From the sequence record SRR31156797_4650: a stretch of 64,000 nucleotides of DNA, one strand, 5' to 3'. The position numbers and the translations under genes were made by a program. This document shows positions 27,586 to 40,415 of this stretch, piece after piece; positions within the stretch are counted from its first letter, which is position 1, and every line of letters begins with the position of its first letter. Below the pieces are notes generated by a model. It saw only the letters and a program-made list of their open reading frames with translations, was not told the origin of the DNA and did not search any database.

Positions 27586-29067
27586 CTAGTAGGCGTGCAT
27601 GGCAGGGCCATCCTCTTCTTCTGTGTCATCGGCCTCTTCGGCGAATCCATCGCTTATTCCACCATCAAGAGTTGCACCACGCTTATAGACTTTGTAGAAA
27701 CGCGGGCAGTCATCACCACAAACATATCCCTGCGGAGTCATGTCTTTACCCTTAAAGGCGGGATAATCCTTTCCATAACGGTAGGCACGATGGATATAAT
27801 TATTTGCAATGTCGTACGGGGTCATACCCTTCTTGGCCGCATACTTTTTCCCTTCATCAAAAACGCACTGCGCCTCATCACCGAATATGGGGTTCACAAA
27901 CTCCCAAACGACCTTGGGATTCTTGCCACCAGTCACCTCTATCAGATGTCCTTGGCCGGTCGAAGTAATGAATGTATTACCATTCTCCAGACGCTGAGCA
28001 CCACCTTGGTACATCGAATAGAAACTATTAGTCAGCTTACTCGCATATTCCCATACGACTTTGCCTGTCTTAGGATTCATTTCCACTGCACGAGAACGGT
28101 TCCCTTCGGGACGATACCAACCGTTATCAAAAATCAGGAAATTTCCATTTTTCAGCCAAGTAACATGGTGATTACCAAACAATTGCTGGTCGCCATTATC
28201 GATAAAGGCAGGGGCCTTTCCGGCATCATGTGTACTCGGATTACCCCATCGGTATTCGATTTTTCCAGTCTTACGATCAATTACGTAAAATTCACCAAAG
28301 TTACGAGAATTCAGGACGATTTTTTTACCGTCTGGAGATACATCAACGGAGTTGCAATGCGTCCAATCAACGACATCCATTAATTCGACGATGTTACGGT
28401 CACCTCGGAGATACCAATTGATATCGATTTTATCTGGTCCGGTTCCAATGTGATCCCAGACATGCCATTCCCAAACAACCTTGCCATTCTTATCAACCTC
28501 TTGGACATAATCAGCCCAAGTATACTTGAATTGCATTCCCCACAGTTTCAAGCCACCCTTGGGCATGGCTTTGGGATCACGACCCTTTGCAATGGCTTCT
28601 TCGTTTGTTTTTCTTTCCCAACACAATACAAGTGTATTGCCATTTGGAAGCCTGCGAAAAGAATGATGCTGAAGAGAAGTGTCACTAAAATTCTTATACT
28701 TCCATACGAGTTTGCCATCCCAGTCAAACTCTTCCAAAAGTCCACCCTCACCACCAAACCCGACGGTGGCGGGCTTATCCAAGTGGCTAGCTCGAAGCAA
28801 ATGCCCATTGGGAAGCAGTTGAGAATGGGCACCGGGTTTATGAGCATGTTTCCATGTATGTACAACATTACCTTCCATATCGATCAAATAAGTTGCCTTT
28901 CCCATACCCGGATCGAACAATGTATACCCATCAAAAGCTTTGCTCTTGTTGTATTTCAAAACCCCGGTCGGTCCGGTCAATGCTTCATAAGCCTGTGCTG
29001 GCACAGCCAACACAACTGCCAACAGCGCGGCCAGTGCAAATGTGTAAAAATTGGATTGCTTGCGCAT
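27586..29067 (-). CDS. Periplasmic aryl-sulfate sulfotransferase paralogue 3
   Basis: Signal peptide; QHHS, DWTHCNS, NSRN, GNHH; GAQRLENGNTFI; C-terminal CGDDC and acidic tail. Confidence 0.88.
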   Translation of the reverse strand: MRKQSNFYTFALAALLAVVLAVPAQAYEALTGPTGVLKYNKSKAFDGYTLFDPGMGKATYLIDMEGNVVHTWKHAHKPGAHSQLLPNGHLLRASHLDKPATVGFGGEGGLLEEFDWDGKLVWKYKNFSDTSLQHHSFRRLPNGNTLVLCWERKTNEEAIAKGRDPKAMPKGGLKLWGMQFKYTWADYVQEVDKNGKVVWEWHVWDHIGTGPDKIDINWYLRGDRNIVELMDVVDWTHCNSVDVSPDGKKIVLNSRNFGEFYVIDRKTGKIEYRWGNPSTHDAGKAPAFIDNGDQQLFGNHHVTWLKNGNFLIFDNGWYRPEGNRSRAVEMNPKTGKVVWEYASKLTNSFYSMYQGGAQRLENGNTFITSTGQGHLIEVTGGKNPKVVWEFVNPIFGDEAQCVFDEGKKYAAKKGMTPYDIANNYIHRAYRYGKDYPAFKGKDMTPQGYVCGDDCPRFYKVYKRGATLDGGISDGFAEEADDTEEEDGPAMHAY

Positions 29068-29109
29068 TCGTCCTCCTCAAAATGATTGTTACAATAGATA
29101 CACCTACAT

Positions 29110-29125
29110 TCCAACTTTCGTGCCA
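29110..29125 (-). promoter_or_regulatory. Sigma54 promoter of ASST3
   Basis: Minus strand TGGCACGAAAGTTGGA. Confidence 0.7.
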
Positions 29126-29184
29126 TTATTTTGTTTTTAATTATTCAATATATTCGAATACTTAAAGTCAATTAAAAATACCTT

Positions 29185-29234
29185 CATGCCAAGTTCCGCA
29201 CACCATCCCAGACGACTGTGTTAACGTCCGCACA
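29185..29234. promoter_or_regulatory. Paired enhancer-like sites upstream of ASST3
   Basis: CATGCCAAGTTCCGCACA (29185-29202) and TGTGTTAACGTCCGCACA (29217-29234), offset 32 bp. Confidence 0.65.
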
Positions 29235-29243
29235 GGAGTCCAT

Positions 29244-29270
29244 AAAAAAAGACGACCCCGAAGGGCCGTC
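29244..29270 (-). terminator. Intrinsic terminator after ASST4
   Basis: Minus strand GACGGCCC-TTCG-GGGTCGTC-TTTTTTT: UUCG tetraloop plus U-tract. Confidence 0.85.
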
Positions 29271-29300
29271 CTGTTTGAATTCATATAATATCGTAAGGAC

Positions 29301-30821
29301 CTAGTATGCATGCATGGCGGGGCCATCTTCTTCCATGCTGTCGTCTTCCTCATCAGCGTATTCGTCAGTATCGCCGCCCAAGGTTGCACCCTTTTTAAAG
29401 TCACGGAAGAAACGCGGACAGTCATCGCCACAAACGTATTCTTGTGGAGTAAGATCTCTCCCTTTCAGACCAGGGTAGTCCGGGCCGTAACGAAACGCAC
29501 GATGGATCATGCCCCACATGCTGTCGTCATGGGAAGAGGTGCTCGGGATGGCATCCTCGTCACCCAACACACACTTGGGCTTGCCAAACACAAACGGATT
29601 GACGAATTCCCACACGATTTTCTTGTCCTTGGTCACCTCCATGACGTGTCCACCATGAGTGGAACAAATCAGAGTATTGCCGTTGGGCAAACGCTGTACA
29701 CCGCCCTGACGGTGGGAGGAGAAACTGTTAGTGTGATTAGTGGCGAATTCCCAAACAATCTTACCGGTCTTGGGATTCATTTCCACGGCACGGGAATGAC
29801 GCTTCTCGGGAGCCTCGGAGCCGTTATCGAACATCAGGACATTACCGTTTTCTAATGGAACCGCGCAATGCTGACCCCAAATTTTCTGATCGCCATTGTT
29901 GTACCAACCCGGCTTTTGAGCTTTGGGGTTCCAAGCCGTATCGTTGCCCCAGCGGTATTCAATTTCACCGGTCTTATGATTGATGAAGTAAAATTCGGAC
30001 AGATTACGAGAATTCAACACGATGGTATCGGTATTGGGAATGTAATCGACCGAGTTGAAATGAGACCAGTCAAAAGAGGCATAGATATCACCAACCGGTT
30101 TCGGAAGGACGTAGTTAAAATCCATTTTTTTTGGCCCTTTGCCCAAATGGTCAGTAACGTGCCATTCCCAAACAGTCTTGCCTTTGGAATCAACCTCACG
30201 CACGAAGTCATTCCAAAAGCCTTCATGAGCTGCTCCTTGATGAACCACAGGCTTGGAAGGAATGGTTTTGGGATCTCGTCCTTTCTTGATGGCCTCTTCC
30301 TTGGTCATATATTCCCAACCAAGAATCAAAGTATTGCCGTTAGGCATACGATGAAAGGCATGATGATGCATTTCCTTGTATGGCTTGGCCATTTCGTATT
30401 CCCACACGACATTGCCATCCCAGTCGATTTCCTGAACGATGCCGCACGTACCGCCAATGGCGACATATTTCTTCAAATCTTTTTTGCCCAGTTTCTTGCC
30501 AGTCTTGGCTTCCAACTGTTTTTTCTGATCTATCCGTCCACCACGAAGAAGGTTGCCGTTGGGCAACAATTCGGCATACAGACCAGGAGCATACTCACAG
30601 TCCCAAGTATGAACAATATTTCCTTCCATATCGATGAGATAAGTTGTCTTATTACCGATCATAGGTGAAAAAAGAGTATACCCATCAAAAACCTTGTCAG
30701 CATCATATTTCAAGACGCCAGTGGGTCCTGTAGCAGCCTCATAAGCCTGTGCCGGTACAGCGAGCACAACCGCCAGCATAGCGGCCAGTGCAAATGTGTA
30801 AAAATAGGATTGCTTGCGCAT
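29301..30821 (-). CDS. Periplasmic aryl-sulfate sulfotransferase paralogue 4
   Basis: Signal peptide nearly identical to ASST3; HHHA, DWSHFNS, NSRN, GQHC; GVQRLPNGNTLI; CGDDC and acidic tail. Confidence 0.88.
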   Translation of the reverse strand: MRKQSYFYTFALAAMLAVVLAVPAQAYEAATGPTGVLKYDADKVFDGYTLFSPMIGNKTTYLIDMEGNIVHTWDCEYAPGLYAELLPNGNLLRGGRIDQKKQLEAKTGKKLGKKDLKKYVAIGGTCGIVQEIDWDGNVVWEYEMAKPYKEMHHHAFHRMPNGNTLILGWEYMTKEEAIKKGRDPKTIPSKPVVHQGAAHEGFWNDFVREVDSKGKTVWEWHVTDHLGKGPKKMDFNYVLPKPVGDIYASFDWSHFNSVDYIPNTDTIVLNSRNLSEFYFINHKTGEIEYRWGNDTAWNPKAQKPGWYNNGDQKIWGQHCAVPLENGNVLMFDNGSEAPEKRHSRAVEMNPKTGKIVWEFATNHTNSFSSHRQGGVQRLPNGNTLICSTHGGHVMEVTKDKKIVWEFVNPFVFGKPKCVLGDEDAIPSTSSHDDSMWGMIHRAFRYGPDYPGLKGRDLTPQEYVCGDDCPRFFRDFKKGATLGGDTDEYADEEDDSMEEDGPAMHAY

Positions 30822-30862
30822 TTGTCCTCCTCAAATATTTGTTACAATAGATGCGCTTCTAA

Positions 30863-30878
30863 TCCAACAATCATGCCA
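30863..30878 (-). promoter_or_regulatory. Sigma54 promoter of ASST4
   Basis: Minus strand TGGCATGATTGTTGGA, same distance from the start as in ASST3. Confidence 0.68.
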
Positions 30879-30938
30879 GCACACAAAATGAAAAATTTCA
30901 CAATATTACAAGGTATTACAGCACCGAAAAAGATCACT

Positions 30939-30988
30939 TGTGCAAAATGTCGCGCGGTTTTACCGCACACTGTATAGAGCACCGCACA
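30939..30988. promoter_or_regulatory. Paired enhancer-like sites upstream of ASST4
   Basis: TGTGCAAAATGTCGCGCG (30939-30956) and TGTATAGAGCACCGCACA (30971-30988), offset 32 bp; an extra CCGCACA half-site lies between them. Confidence 0.6.
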
Positions 30989-31000
30989 GGTTGAAAAATA

Positions 31001-32356
31001 TCAAAGATTATAGGTATCGATTTTATCGTAGAGCGTCCGCCGACCAATGCCGAGGATCTTGGCAGCCTTGGAACGATTGCCTTCTGCAACGGCAAGAGCC
31101 TGCCGAATAGCGGAAATTTCAGCCTTTTCAACGGCACTTTTCAACTCAACTGCCTGACTAGGATTTTCGTACTTGTTTTGAGCACAAGGTCTCGCATTGG
31201 TACACAAGGAATCAAGCGTGATACTGTTATCGTCTGAAAGTAGCACTGCGCGCTCAATGACATTTTCCAGTTCGCGAATATTCCCCTTCCAAGGCGAATC
31301 CATAAGCATCTGCATTGCACTCGGGGACAGCTCGGTAACATCCTTGTTGTACCGAGTGTTAAACTTGCGCACAAAGTGATCGACAAACAACAGAAGATCA
31401 TCCTGCCGCTCACGCAAAGGAGGCAACCGTAACGGAATTACCGCCAACCGATAGAAAAGGTCCTTACGAAAATCGCCCGTCTCTACTCCCTCGTCCAAAT
31501 TCCTGCTCGTGGCAGAAAGAAAACGAACGTCGATATTAATAGGAGTGTTGCCACCCACGGGCTTAATCTCCAGTTCCTGAATTGCCCGAAGGAGTTTCAC
31601 CTGCGTCGATGGTGACAATTCACCTATTTCATCCAGAAAGATCGTGCCACCTTGCGCTTCTTCAAGCAGGCCACGTTTGGCACGCGTGGCCCCGGTGAAG
31701 GCTCCCTTAACATGACCAAACAACTCACTTTCCAACAGGTTTTCAGTGAGCGCACCACAATCAATGGTAAAAAAAGGTTTATCTGCACGAGAACTTGCCA
31801 AATGAATCCGCTTGGCAAACATGGACTTGCCAGTTCCGGTCTCGCCCTGAATGAGTATAGGGGCATCTGAACCGGACACCTTATCCACAGTGTTCATCAT
31901 CTGCTGGATAACCGCGTTGTTACCAACGACCATGGCACCTGTCTGATCGTCTTCTTCCTGGGCATTGAAAGATTCCAGCTTACGATGCAACTCACCGTGT
32001 TCGATGGCCCGGCGGGCGAGTAAAGCCAACTCCTGAGTCTTAAACGGCTTGGTAATATAATGGTAGGCACCAAGCTTGATAGCATCGACCGCAGTCTCAA
32101 TGGACCCCGCCCCGGTCATAATGATAAAGGGCAAAATACTATCAATAGTCCGCACCTGCTTGAGCAACTCAAGTCCGCCCATAGGCTCCATGGCAAGATC
32201 ACTGACAATCAGATCGTACATGGTTTCAGAAAGCGCTTTCCACGCCTCCTCGCCGGACGTTGCTGTGTGGACAGTGTATCCTTGACGACTCAAAGACCGT
32301 TTCAAAATGGAAAGCAATTCCTGTTCATCATCCACGAGTAATATTTTATGCAGCAT
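31001..32356 (-). CDS. NtrC-family sigma54 response regulator, paralogue of 22122-23474
   Basis: Receiver, [14 protein letters not shown], Fis HTH; long stretches identical to the paralogue. Confidence 0.95.
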   Translation of the reverse strand: MLHKILLVDDEQELLSILKRSLSRQGYTVHTATSGEEAWKALSETMYDLIVSDLAMEPMGGLELLKQVRTIDSILPFIIMTGAGSIETAVDAIKLGAYHYITKPFKTQELALLARRAIEHGELHRKLESFNAQEEDDQTGAMVVGNNAVIQQMMNTVDKVSGSDAPILIQGETGTGKSMFAKRIHLASSRADKPFFTIDCGALTENLLESELFGHVKGAFTGATRAKRGLLEEAQGGTIFLDEIGELSPSTQVKLLRAIQELEIKPVGGNTPINIDVRFLSATSRNLDEGVETGDFRKDLFYRLAVIPLRLPPLRERQDDLLLFVDHFVRKFNTRYNKDVTELSPSAMQMLMDSPWKGNIRELENVIERAVLLSDDNSITLDSLCTNARPCAQNKYENPSQAVELKSAVEKAEISAIRQALAVAEGNRSKAAKILGIGRRTLYDKIDTYNL

Positions 32357-34298
32357 TGATGTCTTCCTTGTGTCCATATGCGGGAAATTCCAAAATCATA
32401 CGAGTACCTTCCCCAACTTCCGACTCAGCGAAAATCAAACCATCATGGCGCTCAATCATACGACGGGTAATGAACAGGCCCAGACCGAACCCACCCTTGC
32501 GAGATGTAAAAAACGGTTCAAAAATACGTGGCAAATTCTCGCGAGGAATACCCTTTCCCTCGTCCTTGACCTCCAGTCGCACAGTTTGAAGATCGTTCTC
32601 TCCCTGCCGCCAAACCAGAATCTCGATAGAACCAGTCCCGTCCATGCTCGCTAATGAATTGAACAACAAATTCACAATGACCTGTTGTAAAACACGGCTA
32701 TCGCCTCGAATAAAGAGAGGGCCGTCCTCTACGCGAACTTCAATTCTGCTCTTTTTCACTTTGGGACCAAGCAGGGAAAGCGACTCATGAATCATATCGC
32801 CTACATCTATTCTTTTTAAAGAAATGGGTTGGGGAGAGGCTGCTTCAAGCAGTCCCTTGGTTATCTCGCCGGCACGGATAGCGTTCCGTTGAATAGCGGA
32901 CAGCCCTTCTTTCACGCCATCATCCACATCAGCTTCATACAGCAGGTCCTCGGCATTAGCCTGAATAATACCCAAAGGATTATTGACTTCATGCGCCACG
33001 CTTGCCGCCATTTTTCCTATAATTCCAAGCCGCTCAGACTGGATAAGTTCCTCTTCCATACGATTGCGTTCTGTCACATTCCGCGCAAAAAGACATGCAA
33101 GGAGTTCAGTATGCAGCGGCCCTTGAATAACGCGACCAGCAATCTCCACTTCCATTGGATTGCCCGACACACTTTGCATGCTGAATTCGTGCTTGTCGCA
33201 CCCGTCATTAAAAACCTTGGTCAAGAACACCGCTATTTCATCAACATCATCAGGAACCATAATCTGACCAAGATTTACAACGTCATCCTGATCTGGAAAC
33301 AAAAGGAATGATTGAGCACGCTCATTGGCGTGTAAAATATCACCAGCTTCGTTAACCAAAAAAATTACATCAGGAGAAGATTCGATTAAATCACGATACC
33401 GTTGTTCTGTCCGGCGCAAATCGCTGGCGGCCTTGTCCACTCGACGTTTGAGCGAAACATTCCACAAAACAATACCTATAAAAATCAAACCGACTATCGC
33501 CACAGCGATGGCAATATGTTTGGCATAATAAGCAAGGCCGTCCCTTCGCGAATGCTCACCAAACCATTTATCTCGCAACTGAGCCAAATGTCCGGTTTCC
33601 CGCAAGTGCCGCACGGCAGACATCAGGTCAGCAGCAAACTGCCTGTCGTGCCGTGATACAGACAGCCCAAGAGGCACTTCGCCCAAGACCTTCCCTTTTT
33701 TCTCGATATTCGAAAAACCATTCTGATCAATCAGGTAATCCGCCACCCTCTCGGACGGCGCCACAAAAATTTCAACAACACCCTGATCAAGCATACTCAA
33801 GGCTTCAAGCGGAGAGGTCACTTTAATCACATCATTGCCGAACTCGACTTCCGGGCTATAGGGAGCCCCGGTAATCGCCACCACACGCTTGCCAACGAGT
33901 TTATTTGAATTATTAACCACTGGACTCTTCGTGTTGACGAAAAGGTGATTACGTAGGCTGTATCCAAGCGGAATAAAAACAAATGAAGAACGGGAAGACG
34001 GGCGTGATCCGTGTGCCATGAGGTCAAGTTGCCCGTCTGCATACATGCGAGGGTAATCAACCAGACTATCTACAAGAACAAATTCGATATCCGCATCAAG
34101 CAGTTCACCAAGCAAAACCCATTCATCGATGGAATAACCACGAACCCCTTGTTCACCATCCTGCATGGCAAGAAATGAAAATGGTGGAGATATAGCCCGA
34201 ATACCAACCTTGCAAGTCTCACGACACCATGCATTGCCAGCTGAAAAAAACAGAACAAACGCCATAAGGATCAGGCTGAGGTAAACAAAGCGTCGCAT
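32346..34298 (-). CDS. Sensor kinase PBP2-TM-PAS-HK, paralogue of 20185-22122
   Basis: Signal peptide MRRFVYLSLIL; PPFSF, APSERVADYLI, RYRDLIESSPD, SVAHEVNNPL, GFGLGL; start placed at ATG 34298. Confidence 0.9.
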   Translation of the reverse strand: MRRFVYLSLILMAFVLFFSAGNAWCRETCKVGIRAISPPFSFLAMQDGEQGVRGYSIDEWVLLGELLDADIEFVLVDSLVDYPRMYADGQLDLMAHGSRPSSRSSFVFIPLGYSLRNHLFVNTKSPVVNNSNKLVGKRVVAITGAPYSPEVEFGNDVIKVTSPLEALSMLDQGVVEIFVAPSERVADYLIDQNGFSNIEKKGKVLGEVPLGLSVSRHDRQFAADLMSAVRHLRETGHLAQLRDKWFGEHSRRDGLAYYAKHIAIAVAIVGLIFIGIVLWNVSLKRRVDKAASDLRRTEQRYRDLIESSPDVIFLVNEAGDILHANERAQSFLLFPDQDDVVNLGQIMVPDDVDEIAVFLTKVFNDGCDKHEFSMQSVSGNPMEVEIAGRVIQGPLHTELLACLFARNVTERNRMEEELIQSERLGIIGKMAASVAHEVNNPLGIIQANAEDLLYEADVDDGVKEGLSAIQRNAIRAGEITKGLLEAASPQPISLKRIDVGDMIHESLSLLGPKVKKSRIEVRVEDGPLFIRGDSRVLQQVIVNLLFNSLASMDGTGSIEILVWRQGENDLQTVRLEVKDEGKGIPRENLPRIFEPFFTSRKGGFGLGLFITRRMIERHDGLIFAESEVGEGTRMILEFPAYGHKEDINAA

Positions 34299-34367
34299 GC
34301 CGGTCCCATAACGCAAAGAGCCACTATGCACCAGTCCGTACAACGCCCATTTCCCGAAGACAGGGAT

Positions 34368-34395
34368 TTCCCCCGGCATGTCCATACCGGGGGAA
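34368..34395. terminator. Hairpin after the selenoprotein operon
   Basis: TTCCCCCGG/CCGGGGGAA stem; no strong U-tract, so read-through into the kinase gene is possible. Confidence 0.45.
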
Positions 34396-34446
34396 GTCTC
34401 AGGGAGGAGGTATGATGAATCAATATTATTCATCTGGTTATGGTGA

Positions 34447-35145
34447 CTACTTTGCCTGACCAATCAACACGGCCTTATACCCTTTGCCTATGTCATTTCT
34501 GGCATCGGAATAGACCATGATGATATCCATGAACCGACCGGGCTTATTCGGTGTGACTAAGAACTCGACGGGTGCGATCTGCCCGGCTTCGAGTTTCAGA
34601 GAGCCCTGCCAGTACGTTGTTTTAAACTTGCGCGACTTGATTGCCGTCACAATCATGGGCGCGTCTCCAGCATTCTTGATCATGATTTTAGCAGGAGTCG
34701 CCTTACCGTTGCTCAAACCATCTACTGAGGTCTTGCGTGGGGTTACTTCCATAACCCCCATGGGGATCGGCTCAACATAACCAACGATATGAATTATCTG
34801 CTGGTTCGCTTTACTTTCGCCTGTGCTGACCGTCACCGTCTTATCGAATTTTCCCGGATACTTGAACGTGTTATAGCTGATGACCATTCCAACAGATTCG
34901 CCAGGGTTGATGTTGCTCTGTCCCAGAGCAGTTGTGGTGCAACTTCACGACGTCGTCACGTTCTTGATCGTGACAACCTCCTTGCTGACATTGGTGAGCA
35001 TCACCGTTTTGCTGGCAACAGGCCCTTCGATCATGGAACCGAAATCAACCTTCATATCACTGATGGAAACGGGCTGGGCCGCCATTGCCGAAGAGGCAAA
35101 CAGCAAACCGAGCACCAGAGCCATAAGCTGAATTTTCTTGAACAT
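34447..35145 (-). CDS. Predicted periplasmic selenoprotein, DUF1573-like plus second Ig-like domain, 232 aa, Sec at TGA 34945-34947
   Basis: ORF-track pieces 34945-35145 and 34447-34887 are in one frame with no other stop: ...VTIKNVTTS-TGA-SCTTTALGQSNINPGESVGMVISYNTFKYPGKFDKTVTV...; the TGA aligns with the first Cys of the DUF1573 SCGCT motif; SECIS-like hairpin follows; signal peptide. Confidence 0.82.
34912..34944 (-). other. Candidate bacterial SECIS element
   Basis: After the UGA: AGUUGCACCACAAC-UGCUCUG-GGA-CAGAGCA-AC; 7-bp stem with a G-initiated apical loop 21 nt downstream of the UGA. Confidence 0.7.
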
Positions 35146-35154
35146 AGTGAGTCC

Positions 35155-35613
35155 TTACTTTTTCCCGTGAACGAACCGGGATTTCAAACTGTAATCAAAG
35201 TTCTTGTCCTGCCCTTCGGTATGACAGGTGCGGCAATTATCCTCACCGGGCTTCCCGATAATATCCTTGGGGTCCTCGGACTCGGTATGAGCCAACCCCG
35301 GACCATGGCAGGATTCACACTGAACATCCTTGAGTTCAGGGGTCAGTTCCATGTCAATGAAGCCGCCGTCCGCATCCATTGCCACCACGTGACACTGGAC
35401 ACATCCCTGCACCTGTTGCTTTTCCTCGCCCTGCTCCTTGAGGGTCTCGAAAGCGTGCGCATGCGGGGTCGCCTTCCACCCCTCCACGATCTCCGCGTGG
35501 CAGTCCGCACACGCTGTGTACCCCACGTAATCGCCAAAAAGTTCGGCATTGGCAGCCGAAACCAGCGACAAGACAAAGAAAATGGCAACGATGCTGAGCA
35601 CAAGGCGATTCAT
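35155..35613 (-). CDS. Periplasmic tetraheme cytochrome c, c554-like
   Basis: Signal peptide; four CxxCH (CADCH, CVQCH, CESCH, CRTCH); YVG..C..CH......W..T.HA.A and VQCESCHGPG patterns. Confidence 0.9.
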   Translation of the reverse strand: MNRLVLSIVAIFFVLSLVSAANAELFGDYVGYTACADCHAEIVEGWKATPHAHAFETLKEQGEEKQQVQGCVQCHVVAMDADGGFIDMELTPELKDVQCESCHGPGLAHTESEDPKDIIGKPGEDNCRTCHTEGQDKNFDYSLKSRFVHGKK

Positions 35614-35622
35614 GATATATCC

Positions 35623-35925
35623 CTAACAGTTACAAGATGATGCAGGTTCCAAAAACAAGAACTTGCTCAGTTTACGCAATAAGGTGGAATCAATGCCGTC
35701 CACATCAAGCAATTCATCCATATCCACGAACTCTTCATTTTCAGTACGCAACTCGATAATTGCCTCGGCCATGGGCTGATCAATGCCGTCGATGGCAACC
35801 AACTGCTCCACGGTTGCGGTATTAAGATTAAGCTTGCCATCATTGTCACCGGCAAAAGCGGGAACAGAGGCTATGGCAATGGTCAACATAAGGGTCAATG
35901 CGATGATGATATTTTTCATTTTCAT
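35623..35925 (-). CDS. Exported acidic ComEA-like HhH protein with C-terminal CxC
   Basis: Signal peptide; LNLNTATVEQLVAIDGID...AEAIIELR...LLDVDGID; ends EPASSCNC. Confidence 0.8.
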   Translation of the reverse strand: MKMKNIIIALTLMLTIAIASVPAFAGDNDGKLNLNTATVEQLVAIDGIDQPMAEAIIELRTENEEFVDMDELLDVDGIDSTLLRKLSKFLFLEPASSCNC

Positions 35926-35936
35926 ACTCCTAAAGA

Positions 35937-36140
35937 TTACCAGCCGAGATAGTGATGGCTGTACAAAACGGACCAGACCAGACAGGAAACAGTTCCGCTG
36001 GCTATTCCGGAAAACACTTTTTTTGCGAATGATGTGGTGCCCCTATGAGCCTTAAACGCGCCCATATACAAGGCTGCGGAAGACATAAGGACCAACAAAA
36101 CAGCGACCAATGGCAGAATGACGTAGTAGATGCCATGCAT
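35937..36140 (-). CDS. Small two-TM membrane protein, 67 aa
   Basis: GGAGG SD upstream, two hydrophobic segments, 11-12 nt gaps to both neighbours. Confidence 0.65.
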   Translation of the reverse strand: MHGIYYVILPLVAVLLVLMSSAALYMGAFKAHRGTTSFAKKVFSGIASGTVSCLVWSVLYSHHYLGW

Positions 36141-36152
36141 TGTGAAGCCCTC

Positions 36153-36305
36153 CTAGAGCATACCCATGTATTGGCTGATGGTGATAATGGCCATAATTGC
36201 CAAGGCAAAGATCACGCCGAGGCTATCCCGGTCCTGTTCTTCCTGTCCTTTATTGTCCATATAATTGAACCCGGTTTCATCCGTGGTGTGCATATGTCTC
36301 TTCAT
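36153..36305 (-). CDS. Small single-TM protein, 50 aa
   Basis: AAGGAG SD before ATG 36305; MKRHMHTTDETG...LGVIFALAIMAIITISQYMGML; tight operon spacing. Confidence 0.6.
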   Translation of the reverse strand: MKRHMHTTDETGFNYMDNKGQEEQDRDSLGVIFALAIMAIITISQYMGML

Positions 36306-36316
36306 TGTCAGACTCC

Positions 36317-37489
36317 TTAGGCCGGAAGCAGGCCAGTTTTGACGCAAAGCAGGATCACTGCCAACAACAGCGCGATACGAATGAATCCGGCAATACAGGT
36401 GACCAGAAATCCTTTGAAGCCATGCTCACCTATGTCACGGAAGGAAAGGGAAAGCCCAAGAGCACCCGCTGCCAGCGAGAAATCCCACTTGACCATTTCA
36501 AAAATGGCATGATGTGCAGGCTCCTTAAAGACATGCAGGCAGGCCAGCACCCAGAAGAAAATGAACACGCCAAGCCACAACGGGAAAGTCTTGATGCCAC
36601 GGGTGGCACGGACTTCCTCATTATTCCTGTTCCGCAATTTGCGAATGAACATGACGATGAACACATACAGAAAACCAGCGGGCATAATCACATGGCGGCC
36701 AACATCAAACCAGCTTGCCCAACGCCCGGCCTCGTAACTGTTGCCAAAGGCGGCATAAAGGCCTTGTGTGCCGTTACCGACACCGACAACGGATGCCAGC
36801 CCAAAATACTTGGCCGGAATACCGATCAGATCACCCAGAACTGGCAGAAGCTGCATGGCAATTAGGCCAAAGACAATGACACAGACAAAGGCATTGACGA
36901 CCTGACCGCCCTTGGCTTTGATCAGCGGCATGAGAATGGCGCAGACATGAGGATCACCTGTAGACAGGCCACCCGCGATGATAGAGCCATGCCGGTCGTC
37001 CAACTTGAGCAGTCGGGATACCCCCAATGTCACAGAGGCTGTGACAAACAAGGAGCCGGTGCAAATCAAGATGGGGATCAGGCCTATCTTGAAAGCATGA
37101 CCGATCATGAAATGCGGGGCCAGCATGATGATACCTAACGGCATCAACATATGAATGTAGGACAGTCCACGCTTCCAGCTATCCGGCACACCGAAGATGT
37201 TCCCAATAAGCAAACCGAGCAGCAGCGGATTCCAGACAAAGTTAGAGTTCAATATCTGAAAGAAAGGCTGATGGTTCAGCGGACCGATAACTCCGTCAAG
37301 CCATGCAAACAGATTCTGGAGCGTGAACGGATTCGGCACGCCCGCCAAATTGTTACTGAAGATGGCGACAAAGAACATTGCCAGCAGACCGGGCAGCACT
37401 TCCTTGAGGCTGTAAAGCGAACTGAACCAGGATTTCCTGTTCAGATCGTAGTTCAATGTTGCACTCGAAGTATTCATTATATTCCTCAT
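36317..37489 (-). CDS. YeiH/UPF0324 (putative sulfate exporter family) membrane transporter
   Basis: About ten TM helices; VLPGLL, LLLGLLIGN, GIIML, IIAGGLS and AAGALGLSLSFRDIGEHGFKGF resemble YeiH; divergent member. Confidence 0.7.
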   Translation of the reverse strand: MRNIMNTSSATLNYDLNRKSWFSSLYSLKEVLPGLLAMFFVAIFSNNLAGVPNPFTLQNLFAWLDGVIGPLNHQPFFQILNSNFVWNPLLLGLLIGNIFGVPDSWKRGLSYIHMLMPLGIIMLAPHFMIGHAFKIGLIPILICTGSLFVTASVTLGVSRLLKLDDRHGSIIAGGLSTGDPHVCAILMPLIKAKGGQVVNAFVCVIVFGLIAMQLLPVLGDLIGIPAKYFGLASVVGVGNGTQGLYAAFGNSYEAGRWASWFDVGRHVIMPAGFLYVFIVMFIRKLRNRNNEEVRATRGIKTFPLWLGVFIFFWVLACLHVFKEPAHHAIFEMVKWDFSLAAGALGLSLSFRDIGEHGFKGFLVTCIAGFIRIALLLAVILLCVKTGLLPA

Positions 37490-37508
37490 TATTTCTTATA
37501 AATGGCCG

Positions 37509-40415
37509 CTAGCGACGGATATGGGCAGAACCGCCGGTATTCACAGAACCACTCAACTTTTCGTGCGGAGCGTGTTGCCCGATACGCCAGTAATCCTTGA
37601 AAGCGAGACGGGGCAGCATTGAAAGGCGCAGGAAGCCTTCGATAGTCCCGTTAACTCCCACCAGCACGTCGACATTGTTCCTCGGGCGGAAGGCTAGATT
37701 CTCGGTGGAATAATGCTTTTTCCTGTACTCGGTCTCAATGTGCCATGCGTGGACCATTTCACCATCAAAGCTATCCACCACGATCGTGAACAACGGCTTG
37801 CCGCTCTCATCACGAGGCCCTTCATAGACAGGATGTTCCTTATCCAGAATGATGGTCTCAGGGTTGTCCAAAAGGACTTCGTTGAGCTGATAGCAGTGTC
37901 CGCAAACGTCAGGGCGAACCATGAAACGCGGATCATGCTCAAACGGTGTATCTCGCTCCAATTCCTGAATGTCGGTGAAGAAGTAGAGATTGACCTTGCC
38001 GTCCTTGAAGGGCTTTTTCACATCCAGTTCAGCCATCACTGAACCATACTTGAACTGCATGGTCTGGGCGACATCCTGATGCTGTGGCAGCAATTCTTTG
38101 GCGGCGGCGTTCAGCGGACCAAGAATCTTGGAATCAACATGGTTACCTTTGGCATCCAACAAGGTCAGGTCAACGGTTCCGGCTGCGGCATCAAAACCAT
38201 TCAGTTTCAATGTAAACTCACCGAGCTTTGCCGTTTCCTCGACAGCTAAAGAATGTCCCTTTGGCTTGTTGAAGGTATAGCTGATGGCTTGAATAGATGG
38301 GGTACCGAATTCCTTGATCTTCACGTAATTGGAACCGATGTATTCCGGTACAATGTAAGTAGCCCCTTCCGAAAAGACTTCTGGCATATAGTAACGATTG
38401 CCCGCTTTTTCATCTTCATTGAAGCCTTGCGCAAGATAAAAATGTGCGCCCCAACGGTTACCGGAATATTTCATGAGAGAAAGCGAGGCCACAGGACGGT
38501 CATCCAGATACGTGTGGCCGGTATACCGAAGTGCCTTGTTACGCACGCCGAGCATCTCATCCTGCCAGTACATCAAGTTGCCATCGCCCATGGGCTGATT
38601 TTTCCAGAAATCCAAATCCAAGTTTTTGCGAACAAACGTACCAGAAGTGAATGTTGCCAAATAAGCACGTTTGCCAAGCATGAAGAAGGACTCGCCTGCC
38701 AGCGTGCGGATATTTCGCGCATTGCGGGAGGTGTAGCAGAGGCCGGCAGGCGGAATGACGATACGATTATTTTTGTAATCGACATAACTACCGCGAATAA
38801 CGATGGCCTCGGCGGACAACAGTTTTTCCCGTTTACGATTACGCGAAGTTTTGCGCATCAATCCTTTGAGACGAGGCACAAAAGGCGCGGTGTGATCCGG
38901 CTCGTAAAAAGATGAATTGGGGACAATCTTGGGATAGGAAGTAAAACGGGATTCCTCAACCACGGTGCCGTATGAAGAATCGGCAAGACGTGTAAGGAAA
39001 CTGCCTTCGATCATCGGCTCAAGAACCGGTGAAGAACCAAGAAAGAAATCAAGGTTTGTCCGACCTTCGTCGGCCCACATAACCATATTATCCGTCCGCA
39101 TCATATAATAATCGCGAACGTACAAATTACGAACCACGTCGCCTTCAAATTTGTTGGCAACCACTTTAAACGCGGGACGATTCCAAATTTCGGAATATTT
39201 CACAGGCCCGTCAAAACTGTCATTCTCATTGTCGAAAACCAACACGTCATTGTTCTCAATAAGGAGACGCTGCAACATCCCTGTCTTGAGGTTCGGCTCA
39301 AGCACAACAGAATACCGAGAATCCAAGGGCCAGTCCTGACCATTTTTCACGGTGACGAGGTCGCGATAGACAACAAAGGAAAAATGACCGGTTGAATATC
39401 CATGGGACTTGCTGGTGGCCCAAGGAACAAAATCAGAATCCTTGAGGAAACTCGGATCCATGACAATCTCAACACGCATATCCAACTCGGGAATCGTCAG
39501 GTTGTACTTGTCCTTTTCCCCCATCCGTGACTTGTACTCCTGCGCAGATGTCGGCTTGACCAATTTCTCGGCCAGCACTTCGCTTCCAGTAAAGTTGGTG
39601 ACCTTCACCATAAAACCATCAGGCTGGCGGTAAGCATAGATGCGCTTGTCACCATAGAAACGATAGTCTTCCTGGCGTACTTCCAGAATTATTGGACGCT
39701 GCATGGAAAAAGTCGCATCCGTGATTTCTGGAAATTCAATGGACTCAAACACTGCATCGTCAAAATCGATCTTGCTGGCCACATACTTGCTGGCACCGAA
39801 ATAATAGGTGTTGTCCAGATAGAAATTCTCCAACTGGGAATTCAATCCTTCCTTGAGAGAAAGCTGACGGACCTCTTCACGCTTGGGAAACACGGTTGAA
39901 ATAGGAAATTCAAGCGGCCATCCACCAGACGGAGACATCACAGCCAGTTCGGCATACGGCTTTTCATAATGGTCCGTGGAATAATCGAACCAGAGGCGGT
40001 ACCCGGTGTCACCCAGCGGTTTCCGGTCACCCTTCTTGAGAGCGAAATCCTTAAAGACTCGCTTGGTAGAATTAAGGTCTACAAGATACGCGTGTTCGCC
40101 CAACACAAGAAATGGATCGCGCATGAAAGGTCGAGCATCGTGGGATGTTTCGGAAAGGTAGAACAACCCGCCGGGTTGAACTGTGGCTTTGCCATCCTTG
40201 ATCTCGCTGCCGCGCATGATAATGGCTTCGGACAAATGCTTTTTCTGTCCGTACTGGTTCTTGTAAACCTTGTTTCGCAAGCCTGCCAGATGCGGCAAAA
40301 AAGTCATATCCGCTGCCGGGGACAACCCATGCGGATCATTGGCGGCCAAACCTACTGTAGGTATGGCAAAAAGGATCGCCAACGCGATGGCCAGAAGTCG
40401 TACTGTGTTTTTCAT
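37509..40415 (-). CDS. Large exported protein with two-fold internal duplication and a CGHC motif
   Basis: 968 aa; signal peptide; FLPHLAGL...EAIIMRGS...PGGLFY...FLVLGEHAYL repeats as FVPRLKGL...EAIVIRGS...PAGLCY...FFMLGKRAYL; DVCGHCY at 37893-37904. Confidence 0.85.
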   Translation of the reverse strand: MKNTVRLLAIALAILFAIPTVGLAANDPHGLSPAADMTFLPHLAGLRNKVYKNQYGQKKHLSEAIIMRGSEIKDGKATVQPGGLFYLSETSHDARPFMRDPFLVLGEHAYLVDLNSTKRVFKDFALKKGDRKPLGDTGYRLWFDYSTDHYEKPYAELAVMSPSGGWPLEFPISTVFPKREEVRQLSLKEGLNSQLENFYLDNTYYFGASKYVASKIDFDDAVFESIEFPEITDATFSMQRPIILEVRQEDYRFYGDKRIYAYRQPDGFMVKVTNFTGSEVLAEKLVKPTSAQEYKSRMGEKDKYNLTIPELDMRVEIVMDPSFLKDSDFVPWATSKSHGYSTGHFSFVVYRDLVTVKNGQDWPLDSRYSVVLEPNLKTGMLQRLLIENNDVLVFDNENDSFDGPVKYSEIWNRPAFKVVANKFEGDVVRNLYVRDYYMMRTDNMVMWADEGRTNLDFFLGSSPVLEPMIEGSFLTRLADSSYGTVVEESRFTSYPKIVPNSSFYEPDHTAPFVPRLKGLMRKTSRNRKREKLLSAEAIVIRGSYVDYKNNRIVIPPAGLCYTSRNARNIRTLAGESFFMLGKRAYLATFTSGTFVRKNLDLDFWKNQPMGDGNLMYWQDEMLGVRNKALRYTGHTYLDDRPVASLSLMKYSGNRWGAHFYLAQGFNEDEKAGNRYYMPEVFSEGATYIVPEYIGSNYVKIKEFGTPSIQAISYTFNKPKGHSLAVEETAKLGEFTLKLNGFDAAAGTVDLTLLDAKGNHVDSKILGPLNAAAKELLPQHQDVAQTMQFKYGSVMAELDVKKPFKDGKVNLYFFTDIQELERDTPFEHDPRFMVRPDVCGHCYQLNEVLLDNPETIILDKEHPVYEGPRDESGKPLFTIVVDSFDGEMVHAWHIETEYRKKHYSTENLAFRPRNNVDVLVGVNGTIEGFLRLSMLPRLAFKDYWRIGQHAPHEKLSGSVNTGGSAHIRR

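What the first reader, a model, noticed from the sequence alone, without database searches (positions are those of the whole stretch)
34447..35145. Hidden selenoprotein: in-frame UGA at the DUF1573 Cys position with a SECIS-like hairpin
Seen: the 66-aa and 146-aa ORFs are a single frame interrupted only by TGA at 34945-34947, reading KNVTTS-U-SCTTTALGQSNINPGES. A 7-bp stem UGCUCUG/CAGAGCA with a GGA loop follows, the loop starting 21 nt after the UGA. Established: DUF1573 domains carry an S-C-G-C-T motif followed by I.PG; bacterial Sec insertion needs a hairpin directly 3' of the UGA with a G early in the apical loop. Inference: this is a 232-aa exported UxC redox protein on an Ig-like scaffold rather than a thioredoxin fold. 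Automatic annotation would call it two fragments or a pseudogene. I cannot check whether this selenoprotein family is already catalogued.
Basis: partly seen in the sequence, partly recalled or inferred. Interest (0 to 1): 0.88.

Follow-up and report, generated by a model that had tools for sequence, protein, structure and literature searches.

The report
Split gene encodes known-family selenoprotein
Two short neighbouring reading frames are really one gene for an exported protein whose internal TGA is almost certainly read as selenocysteine; the call is right, but this protein family has been listed as a selenoprotein family since 2007-2008, so it is a mis-annotated member, not a new kind of protein.

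Summary
One minus-strand frame, 35145-34447, is broken only by TGA at 34945-34947, and a 7-bp hairpin with a GGA loop follows it.

The selenocysteine reading is strongly supported:
- Among 26 distinct orthologous stretches, 11 have TGA and 15 have a Cys codon at this column.
- All 11 TGA forms keep 7-8 of 8 hairpin pairs with a GGN loop. 6 of 8 pairs show compensatory changes. Cys forms keep 1-5 pairs, with one exception.
- The nearest held genome has tRNA-Sec, SelA, SelB, SelD and the same TGA.

It is not a new family. DUF1573/OS_HP2 is listed as a UxC selenoprotein family (PMC1976440, PMC2398784, PMC9312934). This gene belongs to a two-domain sister branch scoring 43-65 bits against NF041425's 100-bit cut-off. 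Databases hold it as about 146-residue fragments.

New context: a tetrahaem cytochrome c gene directly precedes it in 30 of 30 loci and is fused to it in two. Both sit in a conserved cluster with arylsulfotransferase-like genes. I infer a haem-linked selenol/thiol redox relay; this is untested.

This scan has already reported the same sub-branch on other DNA (e1-3040676).

The parts
34447..35145 (-). Complete selenoprotein gene: 232 codons plus a TAG stop, with a two-domain DUF1573/Ig-like product
   Evidence: The frame is open apart from one TGA. PF07610 scores 83.6 bits. The orthologue in G001 is 98% identical and also has 1 TGA.
34945..34947 (-). UGA read as selenocysteine (residue 67), in the motif S-U-S-C-T
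   Evidence: The same column is TGA in 11 and TGC/TGT in 15 of 26 distinct orthologous stretches. Of 26 long database homologues fetched, 25 have Cys there.
34914..34930 (-). Bacterial SECIS-type hairpin inside the coding sequence: 7-bp stem and GGA loop at 34921-34923. It encodes A-L-G-Q-S.
   Evidence: 90.9% of cells are paired and 6 of 8 pairs show compensatory changes, against 24-44% in slid controls. The hairpin is present in 11 of 11 TGA forms and kept in full (8 of 8 pairs) by only 1 of 15 Cys forms.
35080..35145 (-). Signal peptide, residues 1-22 (MFKKIQLMALVLGLLFASSAMA / AQP)
   Evidence: Read by eye from the translation. The model shows an N-terminal helix at residues 2-17. No signal-peptide predictor was run.
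34780..35064 (-). First Ig-like (DUF1573) domain, residues 28-122, carrying U67-x-C69
   Evidence: Pfam stretch 28-122. S66, C67, C69 and T70 are invariant in 23 aligned homologues.
34450..34767 (-). Second Ig-like domain, about residues 127-232. This is the part databases hold as a 146-aa protein.
   Evidence: Strand pattern of the model. There is a weak second DUF1573 match in G001 (21.3 bits). P0004 and P0007 are 146-aa entries.
35155..35613 (-). Tetrahaem cytochrome c (4 CxxCH) ending 9 nt upstream: the likely redox partner
   Evidence: PF13435, E = 1.2e-19. It is found directly upstream in 30 of 30 related loci. It sits in one frame with the DUF1573 protein, with no stop, in L037 and L039.
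35623..35925 (-). Exported ComEA-like helix-hairpin-helix protein, a conserved cluster member
   Evidence: PF12836, E = 7e-16. Found in 28 of 30 loci.
35937..36140 (-). 67-aa hydrophobic ORF, a conserved cluster member
   Evidence: ORF listed. tblastn matches in 4 of 4 20-kb loci.
36317..37489 (-). YeiH-like membrane protein (PF03601)
   Evidence: Found in 19 of 30 loci with 3-kb flanks and in 4 of 4 20-kb loci.
37509..40415 (-). Exported 968-aa protein with no family match, a conserved cluster member
   Evidence: No Pfam or NCBIfam hit and no PDB sequence hit. It is 65-77% identical over its full length in 4 of 4 20-kb loci.
27586..30821 (-). Two arylsulfotransferase-like (PF05935) genes, at 27586-29067 and 29301-30821
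   Evidence: There are 2-3 such paralogues in 4 of 4 20-kb loci. A match lies within the 3-kb flank in 12 of 30 loci.
31001..34300 (-). Sensor kinase (SBP_bac_3 + PAS + HisKA) and sigma-54 response regulator, directly downstream
   Evidence: Found in 3 of 4 20-kb loci.

Best explanation
Positions 34447-35145 (minus strand) are one gene for an exported 232-residue protein made of two Ig-like DUF1573-type domains.

**Recoding (comparative evidence, plus the textbook mechanism).** The UGA at codon 67 is decoded as selenocysteine. While the ribosome approaches the UGA, the hairpin at 34914-34930 recruits SelB carrying Sec-tRNA(Sec). This is the standard bacterial mechanism.

**Family placement (tested here).** The protein belongs to a two-domain sister branch of the catalogued OS_HP2/DUF1573 selenoproteins, with Sec at the same column of the family's CxC motif.

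**Function (inferred, about 45%).** After signal-peptide cleavage, the U67-x-C69 pair lies in a loop between two strands of domain 1. It cycles between selenol/thiol and selenosulfide forms and exchanges electrons with the tetrahaem cytochrome c encoded 9 nt upstream. Together they act as the dedicated periplasmic redox relay of a conserved gene cluster. That cluster holds 2-3 arylsulfotransferase-like proteins, a 968-residue exported protein, a YeiH-like membrane protein and a ComEA-like protein. The relay may work much as DsbA or DsbL/DsbI serve aryl sulfotransferases in enterobacteria.
For: **Selenocysteine codon**
- The DUF1573 domain spans the TGA.
- In an order-level sample, 5 of 201 genomes carry an orthologue: 3 with one TGA and 2 with none. 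U or C falls at the same column in all five.
- Of 32 sequences (the window plus 31 loci), my motif script failed to parse 2 (L036, L040) and 4 were duplicates. The remaining 26 distinct stretches split into 11 TGA and 15 TGY.
- In a phylum-level sample, 6 of 401 genomes match at E <= 1e-30. Of the 5 strong matches, 4 have one TGA and 1 has none.
- 25 of 26 fetched long database homologues have Cys at the column. The 26th, P0077, reads out of frame there.

**Hairpin**
- 11 of 11 TGA forms keep 7-8 of 8 pairs and a GGN loop. Cys forms keep 1-5 of 8, except L015 with 8 of 8.
- 6 of 8 pairs have compensatory changes. 0 of 500 shuffles reach the covariation score, and slid controls pair in only 24-44% of cells.

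**Machinery in G001 (shares 69% of the window's sampled 31-mers)**
- tRNA-Sec at 81.8 bits, SelA, the SelB wing domain, and a SelD gene that itself carries a TGA.

**TGA is otherwise a stop here**
- It ends 11 of 31 long open frames in the window.

**Cytochrome partner and cluster**
- A tetrahaem cytochrome gene lies directly upstream in 30 of 30 loci.
- It is fused in frame with the DUF1573 protein in L037 (Desulfosarcina variabilis, Sec form) and L039 (Desulfobacter MAG, Cys form).
- The same cytochrome type matches the C-terminal module of the UshA-like selenoprotein model NF041198, at 119 bits against a cut-off of 275.
- The full cluster is present in 4 of 4 20-kb loci.
- Aryl sulfotransferase genes are known to be co-encoded with dedicated disulfide oxidoreductases (PMC13426309, passages read).
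- Two Cys columns are shared by 7 of 13 cluster ASST-like sequences.
Against: - No experiment shows selenium in this protein.
- The window's own assembly is not held, so the Sec machinery is shown only in the nearest genome.
- The hairpin alone is thermodynamically unremarkable (z = -0.10), and no Rfam family matches it.
- The hairpin lies in coding sequence. Part of its conservation could therefore be protein constraint: all Sec forms encode x-L-G-[QK]-x there.
- The redox-relay function is inference from gene order and two fusions. A CxC/UxC pair could equally bind a metal or a chalcogen substrate.
- Only 7 of 13 ASST-like sequences share the two Cys columns.
- The protein fails the NF041425 cut-off (49.6 against 100 bits).
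Confidence: 0.9

Rival explanations
1. It is a real selenoprotein, but the U-x-C pair is a binding site, not an electron relay. It would bind a metal ion or a sulfur/selenium species, and the cytochrome would act on the bound ligand.
For: Residues i and i+2 at a strand edge can chelate soft metals (general knowledge). Earlier notes of this scan place other DUF1573-like Cys/Sec branches in copper operons (not tested here). The cluster holds a YeiH-family 'putative sulfate exporter'-like protein and sulfotransferase-like genes, which gives it a sulfur theme.
Against: No metal-handling gene was seen among the cluster genes scanned. The fusion to, and strict adjacency with, a tetrahaem cytochrome points to electron transfer.
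Confidence: 0.3
2. The TGA is a recent nonsense mutation or an assembly error, and the gene is a pseudogene.
For: Standard gene callers split the gene. The hairpin's folding energy is ordinary.
Against: The same TGA is found in G001 at 98% identity. It is also found in 10 further distinct orthologues from three phylum labels (Thermodesulfobacteriota, Acidobacteriota, Myxococcota), each with the covarying hairpin. Sequence on both sides of the TGA is conserved in frame.
Confidence: 0.02
3. The UGA terminates translation. Two separate polypeptides are made: a 66-aa exported peptide and a 146-aa protein restarted at ATG 34887.
For: An ATG lies 57 nt downstream of the TGA, and databases list the 146-aa product.
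Against: The 146-aa piece would lack a signal peptide and would start inside the first Ig-like domain (Pfam stretch 28-122). Cys forms are continuous proteins. The downstream start position is not conserved among the truncated database calls.
Confidence: 0.03

Closest known systems
OS_HP2 / 'DUF1573 domain-containing protein' selenoprotein family. Sources: Zhang & Gladyshev 2007, PMC1976440; GOS table in PMC2398784 ('OS_HP2, pfam07610, UxC'); tables in reviews PMC9312934 and PMC13188914 ('UGC'); NCBIfam NF041425.
   Same: Same Pfam domain (PF07610). Sec sits at the homologous first-Cys column of the CxC motif; 16 of 19 true OS_HP2 matches that I translated read G-U-G-C there and 3 read Cys. 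Both are exported and both come from Desulfobacterota. In both, the SECIS lies directly 3' of the UGA.
   Different: It scores 49.6 bits against the 100-bit cut-off, and 8 of 8 other members of its branch score 43-65 bits. The motif is U-[SA]-C, not U-G-C. It has a second Ig-like domain. It is strictly paired with, and sometimes fused to, a tetrahaem cytochrome. The branch is rare: 6 of 401 genomes in the phylum sample, against 153 of 401 matching the OS_HP2 model.
UshA-like (seleno)protein, NCBIfam NF041198 (UshA_like_PCGU)
   Same: The neighbouring cytochrome matches that family's C-terminal tetrahaem module (profile positions 403-519, 119 bits). In both cases this haem module is joined to a domain carrying a Cys/Sec pair.
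   Different: The Sec-bearing domain there is nucleotidase-like, here Ig-like. The match is below that family's cut-off of 275 bits. The joining is usually by adjacency here, by fusion there.
DsbA or DsbL/DsbI encoded next to PAPS-independent aryl sulfotransferase genes in enterobacteria (PMC13426309, passages read)
   Same: A dedicated periplasmic thiol-redox protein is encoded in the same cluster as ASST-family genes.
   Different: The fold is not thioredoxin-like, and there is no DsbB/DsbI-like membrane partner. A haem cytochrome would take that role. This is an analogy only, and nothing here tests it.
Bacterial SECIS elements, as a class
   Same: A stem-loop located immediately 3' of the UGA, inside the coding sequence (definition from PMC9312934, passage read), with G residues at the start of the apical loop.
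   Different: No Rfam model matches it. The stem is short (7-8 bp) with a 3-5-nt loop. Whether it meets the bSECISearch criteria was not tested, because that program is not available here.

Membership tests
Bacterial selenoprotein gene | In-frame UGA inside an otherwise intact, conserved coding frame | tested here: met
   Both sides of the UGA are conserved in orthologues.
Bacterial selenoprotein gene | Homologues carry Cys, or UGA again, at the same column | tested here: met
   11 TGA and 15 TGY among 26 distinct stretches. 25 of 26 long database homologues have Cys.
Bacterial selenoprotein gene | Stem-loop (SECIS) directly 3' of the UGA, conserved as a structure | tested here: met
   90.9% of cells paired and 6 of 8 pairs compensatory. 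Present in 11 of 11 TGA forms and kept in full by 1 of 15 Cys forms.
Bacterial selenoprotein gene | Genome encodes tRNA-Sec, SelA, SelB and SelD | tested here: met
   All four are found in G001, the nearest held genome. The window's own assembly is not held.
Bacterial selenoprotein gene | Selenium demonstrated in the protein | not testable with these tools
   Needs 75Se labelling or mass spectrometry.
DUF1573 (Pfam PF07610) | Score above Pfam's gathering threshold | tested here: met
   83.6 bits against 26.1, residues 28-122.
OS_HP2 family (seleno)protein, NCBIfam NF041425 | Score at or above the curated cut-off of 100 bits | tested here: not met
   49.6 bits. Eight other members of the branch score 43-65 bits.
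OS_HP2 family (seleno)protein, NCBIfam NF041425 | Sec at the first Cys of the domain's CxC motif | tested here: met
   The window reads S-U-S-C-T. 16 of 19 translated above-cut-off OS_HP2 matches read G-U-G-C, followed by PPG. The correspondence was judged by eye from the flanking pattern.
OS_HP2 family (seleno)protein, NCBIfam NF041425 | Motif U-G-C as listed in the reviews | tested here: not met
   U-S-C here and U-[SA]-C across the branch. The 2008 table lists the looser motif 'UxC', which this gene does meet.
Thioredoxin-fold thiol:disulfide oxidoreductases | Thioredoxin fold with a CxxC/UxxC motif | tested here: not met
   The model is two beta-sandwich Ig-like domains. The top Foldseek matches are ASH/HYDIN/SPD-2 domains and 2qsv. 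The motif is UxC.

The most novel reading that the evidence does not exclude
The tetrahaem cytochrome and the U/C-x-C Ig-like protein form a previously undescribed kind of periplasmic redox couple. In it, haem groups, not a quinone-linked DsbB-type protein, drive a selenosulfide/disulfide relay built on an Ig-like scaffold. This couple would serve a conserved, horizontally spread cluster of unknown function found in sulfate reducers and Acidobacteriota. The cluster holds arylsulfotransferase-like proteins, a 968-residue exported protein of no known family and a YeiH-like transporter.
Probability: 0.3. Interest if true: 0.6.

Novelty: new member of a known kind. Interest (0 to 1): 0.3.

Why it matters
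**Annotation.** This branch falls below the only curated model for DUF1573 selenoproteins. Public databases therefore hold it as C-terminal fragments: 41 of the 96 clusters found are only 127-176 residues long. Examples are the 146-aa Pseudodesulfovibrio nedwellii entry and the 154-aa Desulfoplanes formicivorans entry. A model for this branch would repair these calls.

**Biology.** No function is known for any DUF1573 selenoprotein; four papers in the library mention DUF1573 and none is a functional study of it. The strict pairing with a tetrahaem cytochrome, including two natural fusions, and the conserved cluster give a concrete hypothesis that can be tested in a cultivable, non-pathogenic sulfate reducer.

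**Selenoprotein evolution.** The tree needs at least four Sec/Cys switches, and one Cys form keeps a fossil hairpin (L015). This makes the family a compact case for studying how Sec is lost.

Tried and rejected
- **Own genome:** searching the window's own genome was not possible because the assembly is not held. I used the nearest genome, G001, instead.
- **Folding energy:** the energy of the UGA-proximal 61 nt showed no signal (z = -0.10). Thermodynamics alone cannot support the hairpin.
- **Rfam:** an E-value scan of 34700-35200 gave no match up to E = 10.
- **Complex prediction:** I stopped that step, so there is no result on the interface.
- **968-aa neighbour:** no Pfam or NCBIfam family, no usable ESM Atlas hit and no PDB sequence match.
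- **Literature on the cluster:** a search for arylsulfotransferase / 'tetraheme cytochrome' / YeiH found 0 papers holding two of the three terms.
- **Cytochrome alignment:** the first attempt failed on a stop codon in one row. It was repeated without that row.
- **Readings rejected:** nonsense mutation, sequencing error, a reassigned TGA (it ends 11 of 31 long frames), two separate polypeptides, and membership of NF041425 as defined by its cut-off.
- **Supplements closed:** supplementary tables of the selenoproteome reviews and of the BSepDB paper (PMC13326102) may already list this sub-branch. Only that paper's search listing and the start of its abstract were seen, and it was not among the four papers holding 'DUF1573'.

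Full report
**1. The observation**

On the minus strand, the 66-aa ORF 35145..34945 and the 146-aa ORF 34887..34447 share one frame. Translating 35145-34447 with TGA read as U gives 232 residues, with one U at position 67 in ...KNVTTS-U-SCTTTALGQSNINPGES....

The stem UGCUCUG/CAGAGCA lies at 34930-34924 and 34920-34914, around a GGA loop at 34923-34921. There are 21 nt between the UGA and the loop.

On its own the hairpin is not special. The 61-nt stretch has z = -0.10, and 82 of 200 shuffles fold at least as well.

**2. It is one gene**

- Pfam DUF1573 (PF07610) matches residues 28-122, across the TGA, at 83.6 bits against a cut-off of 26.1.
- An AlphaFold2 model built on 23 homologues has mean pLDDT 92.8. 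It shows an N-terminal helix (the signal peptide, by eye) followed by two beta-sandwich domains.
- The best Foldseek matches are ASH/HYDIN/SPD-2 Ig-like domains and 2qsv, a Porphyromonas gingivalis protein of unknown function.

**3. Sec/Cys alternation**

The window's own assembly is not held. The nearest genome, G001, shares 69% of the sampled 31-mers. Its orthologue is 98% identical and has the same single TGA.

- *Order sample.* 5 of 201 genomes have an orthologue at E <= 1e-10: 3 with one TGA and 2 with none. The column reads T-S-U-S-C-T or [ST]-S-C-S-C-T.
- *genome-contig scan.* This scan gave 26 loci. Together with the window and the G-handle loci that made 32 sequences. My motif script did not parse 2 (L036, L040) and 4 were duplicates. 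The 26 distinct stretches split into 11 TGA and 15 TGC/TGT.
- *Who carries TGA.* The Sec forms carry the labels Desulfoplanes, Desulfosarcina variabilis, Desulfobacteraceae, Desulfarculaceae, a 'Deltaproteobacteria' MAG, and three Acidobacteriota MAGs.
- *Phylum sample.* 6 of 401 genomes match the family alignment at E <= 1e-30. Of the 5 strong matches, 4 have one TGA and 1 has none.
- *Protein database.* 96 clusters match. Of 26 long forms fetched, 25 have Cys at the column; the 26th, P0077, reads out of frame there.
- *Truncated entries.* 41 of the 96 clusters are only 127-176 residues long. 13 of 13 that I fetched start downstream of the Sec column, several within the ...LG[QK]... stretch.
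- *Direct link.* One of them, the Desulfoplanes formicivorans entry P0064, matches the translation downstream of the TGA in locus L017. So the fragments are mis-called Sec forms.
- *Tree.* A maximum-likelihood tree of 25 distinct rows needs 6 Sec/Cys changes by parsimony. Well-supported branches force at least 4.

**4. The hairpin tracks the TGA**

In an ungapped alignment of the 11 distinct TGA forms, I tested a helix of columns 17-24 with columns 28-35.

- 90.9% of its cells form standard pairs.
- 6 of 8 pairs show changes on both sides.
- 0 of 500 shuffles reach the observed covariation score.
- Sliding the 3' partners by 1-3 columns gives only 24-44% pairing.

The caveat is that these sequences are related and coding, so the shuffle count is not a probability.

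The sharper test is the contrast between the two forms. TGA forms keep 7-8 of 8 pairs and a GGN loop in 11 of 11 cases. Cys forms keep 1-5 of 8 in 14 of 15 cases (mean 3.7 over all 15). The exception is L015, which is sister to the window's protein in the tree (support 98/97). It keeps 8 of 8, which looks like a fossil SECIS after a recent Sec-to-Cys change.

The hairpin forces the peptide x-L-G-[QK]-[SRH] in all Sec forms. Most Cys forms read otherwise, for example KLDKT or SLSKT.

No Rfam family matches the region.

**5. The machinery**

G001 has the following:
- tRNA-Sec at 81.8 bits against a gathering score of 47
- SelA at 538.8 bits
- the SelB winged-helix domain at 72.6 bits, in a 644-aa frame
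- SelD at 341.6 bits, itself with one in-frame TGA

TGA ends 11 of 31 long open frames in the window, so it is not reassigned in general.

I put the probability that this UGA encodes selenocysteine at about 0.93-0.95. No experiment exists.

**6. What is already known**

- Zhang & Gladyshev 2007 (PMC1976440; section 12 and Table 2 read) defined OS_HP2 from two TGA-containing genes of Olavius symbionts.
- The 2008 GOS paper lists 'OS_HP2, pfam07610, UxC' (table passage).
- NCBIfam has NF041425, 'OS_HP2 family (seleno)protein'.
- In the phylum sample, that model matches 153 of 401 genomes at E <= 1e-8 and 31 of 401 above its cut-off. Most top matches carry one TGA.
- Of the 19 above-cut-off matches I translated, 16 read G-U-G-C and 3 read Cys at what is, by eye, the same column.

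The window's protein scores 49.6 bits against the cut-off of 100. Eight other members of its branch score 43-65 bits.

So this is a sister branch, with a U-[SA]-C motif and two domains, inside a catalogued selenoprotein family. It is not a new family.

This scan has reported the same sub-branch before on other DNA (e1-3040676). It has also reported a DUF1573 Sec gene next to a tetrahaem cytochrome (e1-4650352).

**7. Context and likely function**

*The cytochrome partner.* Nine nucleotides upstream lies a 152-aa cytochrome with four CxxCH motifs (PF13435).
- A homologue lies directly upstream of the DUF1573 gene in 30 of 30 related loci.
- In L037 (Desulfosarcina variabilis, Sec form) and L039 (a Desulfobacter MAG, Cys form), the two are one open frame with no stop and no second signal peptide.
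- A third apparent fusion, L044, is only a TGA stop that my script read through.
- The cytochrome also resembles the C-terminal haem module of the UshA-like selenoprotein family NF041198 (119 bits, below the cut-off of 275). This haem module therefore recurs next to Cys/Sec-pair domains.

*The wider cluster.* It is conserved in 4 of 4 20-kb loci, with these members:
- 2-3 arylsulfotransferase-like genes
- a 968-aa exported protein with no family
- a YeiH-like membrane protein
- a 67-aa hydrophobic ORF
- a ComEA-like protein
- the cytochrome and the DUF1573 gene
- in 3 of the 4 loci, a sensor kinase and a sigma-54 regulator

*What I infer.* I infer that U67-x-C69 forms a selenosulfide that exchanges electrons with the cytochrome. 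S66, C67, C69 and T70 are invariant in 23 homologues, and the pair lies between strands 62-65 and 70-74 of the model. The couple would serve this cluster.

Aryl sulfotransferase genes of enterobacteria are co-encoded with dedicated DsbA or DsbL/DsbI oxidoreductases (PMC13426309, passages). Two Cys columns are shared by 7 of 13 cluster ASST-like sequences. That support is weak.

I put this function at about 45%, and a ligand-binding role for the pair at about 30%.

**8. Verdict**

The gene is a mis-annotated selenoprotein of a known family, in a branch that the curated model misses. That makes it a new member of a known kind. The added value here is the cytochrome pairing and fusion and the conserved cluster, which give a testable function.

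Noticed in passing
window 27586-40415 (minus strand); L067-L070: A conserved cluster of about 13 kb. It holds 2-3 arylsulfotransferase-like genes, a 968-aa exported protein with no family match, a YeiH-like membrane protein, a 67-aa hydrophobic ORF, a ComEA-like protein, a tetrahaem cytochrome and the DUF1573 gene. It recurs in 4 of 4 20-kb loci. The 968-aa protein is 65-77% identical between them, and I found no literature on the cluster.
   Followed up: partly
L037:1894-3618 and L039:2479-3675: Natural in-frame fusions of the tetrahaem cytochrome with the two-domain DUF1573 protein: one Sec form (Desulfosarcina variabilis) and one Cys form (a Desulfobacter MAG).
   Followed up: partly
L015:1936-1995 (G082): This Cys-form orthologue, sister to the window's protein in the tree, keeps the full 8-of-8-pair hairpin with a GGA loop. 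It looks like a fossil SECIS left after a recent Sec-to-Cys change.
   Followed up: partly
G001:C1:3423424-3424353 (L012): The SelD gene of the nearest genome itself carries one in-frame TGA, so selenophosphate synthetase is a selenoprotein there.
   Followed up: no
window 35155-35613: The stand-alone tetrahaem cytochrome matches the C-terminal module (profile positions 403-519) of the UshA-like selenoprotein model NF041198. The same haem module is thus linked to two unrelated Sec-bearing domains.
   Followed up: no
L026 and L029: Two nearly identical loci carry very different labels: a Desulfatiglandales MAG and an 'Anaerovoracaceae' (Bacillota) MAG. This may be a binning or labelling oddity, or a recent transfer.
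   Followed up: no
window 34447-34463: The longest ORF of the downstream sensor kinase starts at a TTG (34463) that overlaps the stop of the selenoprotein gene. The real start is probably further downstream, before the hydrophobic segment MRRFVYLSLILMAF.
   Followed up: no
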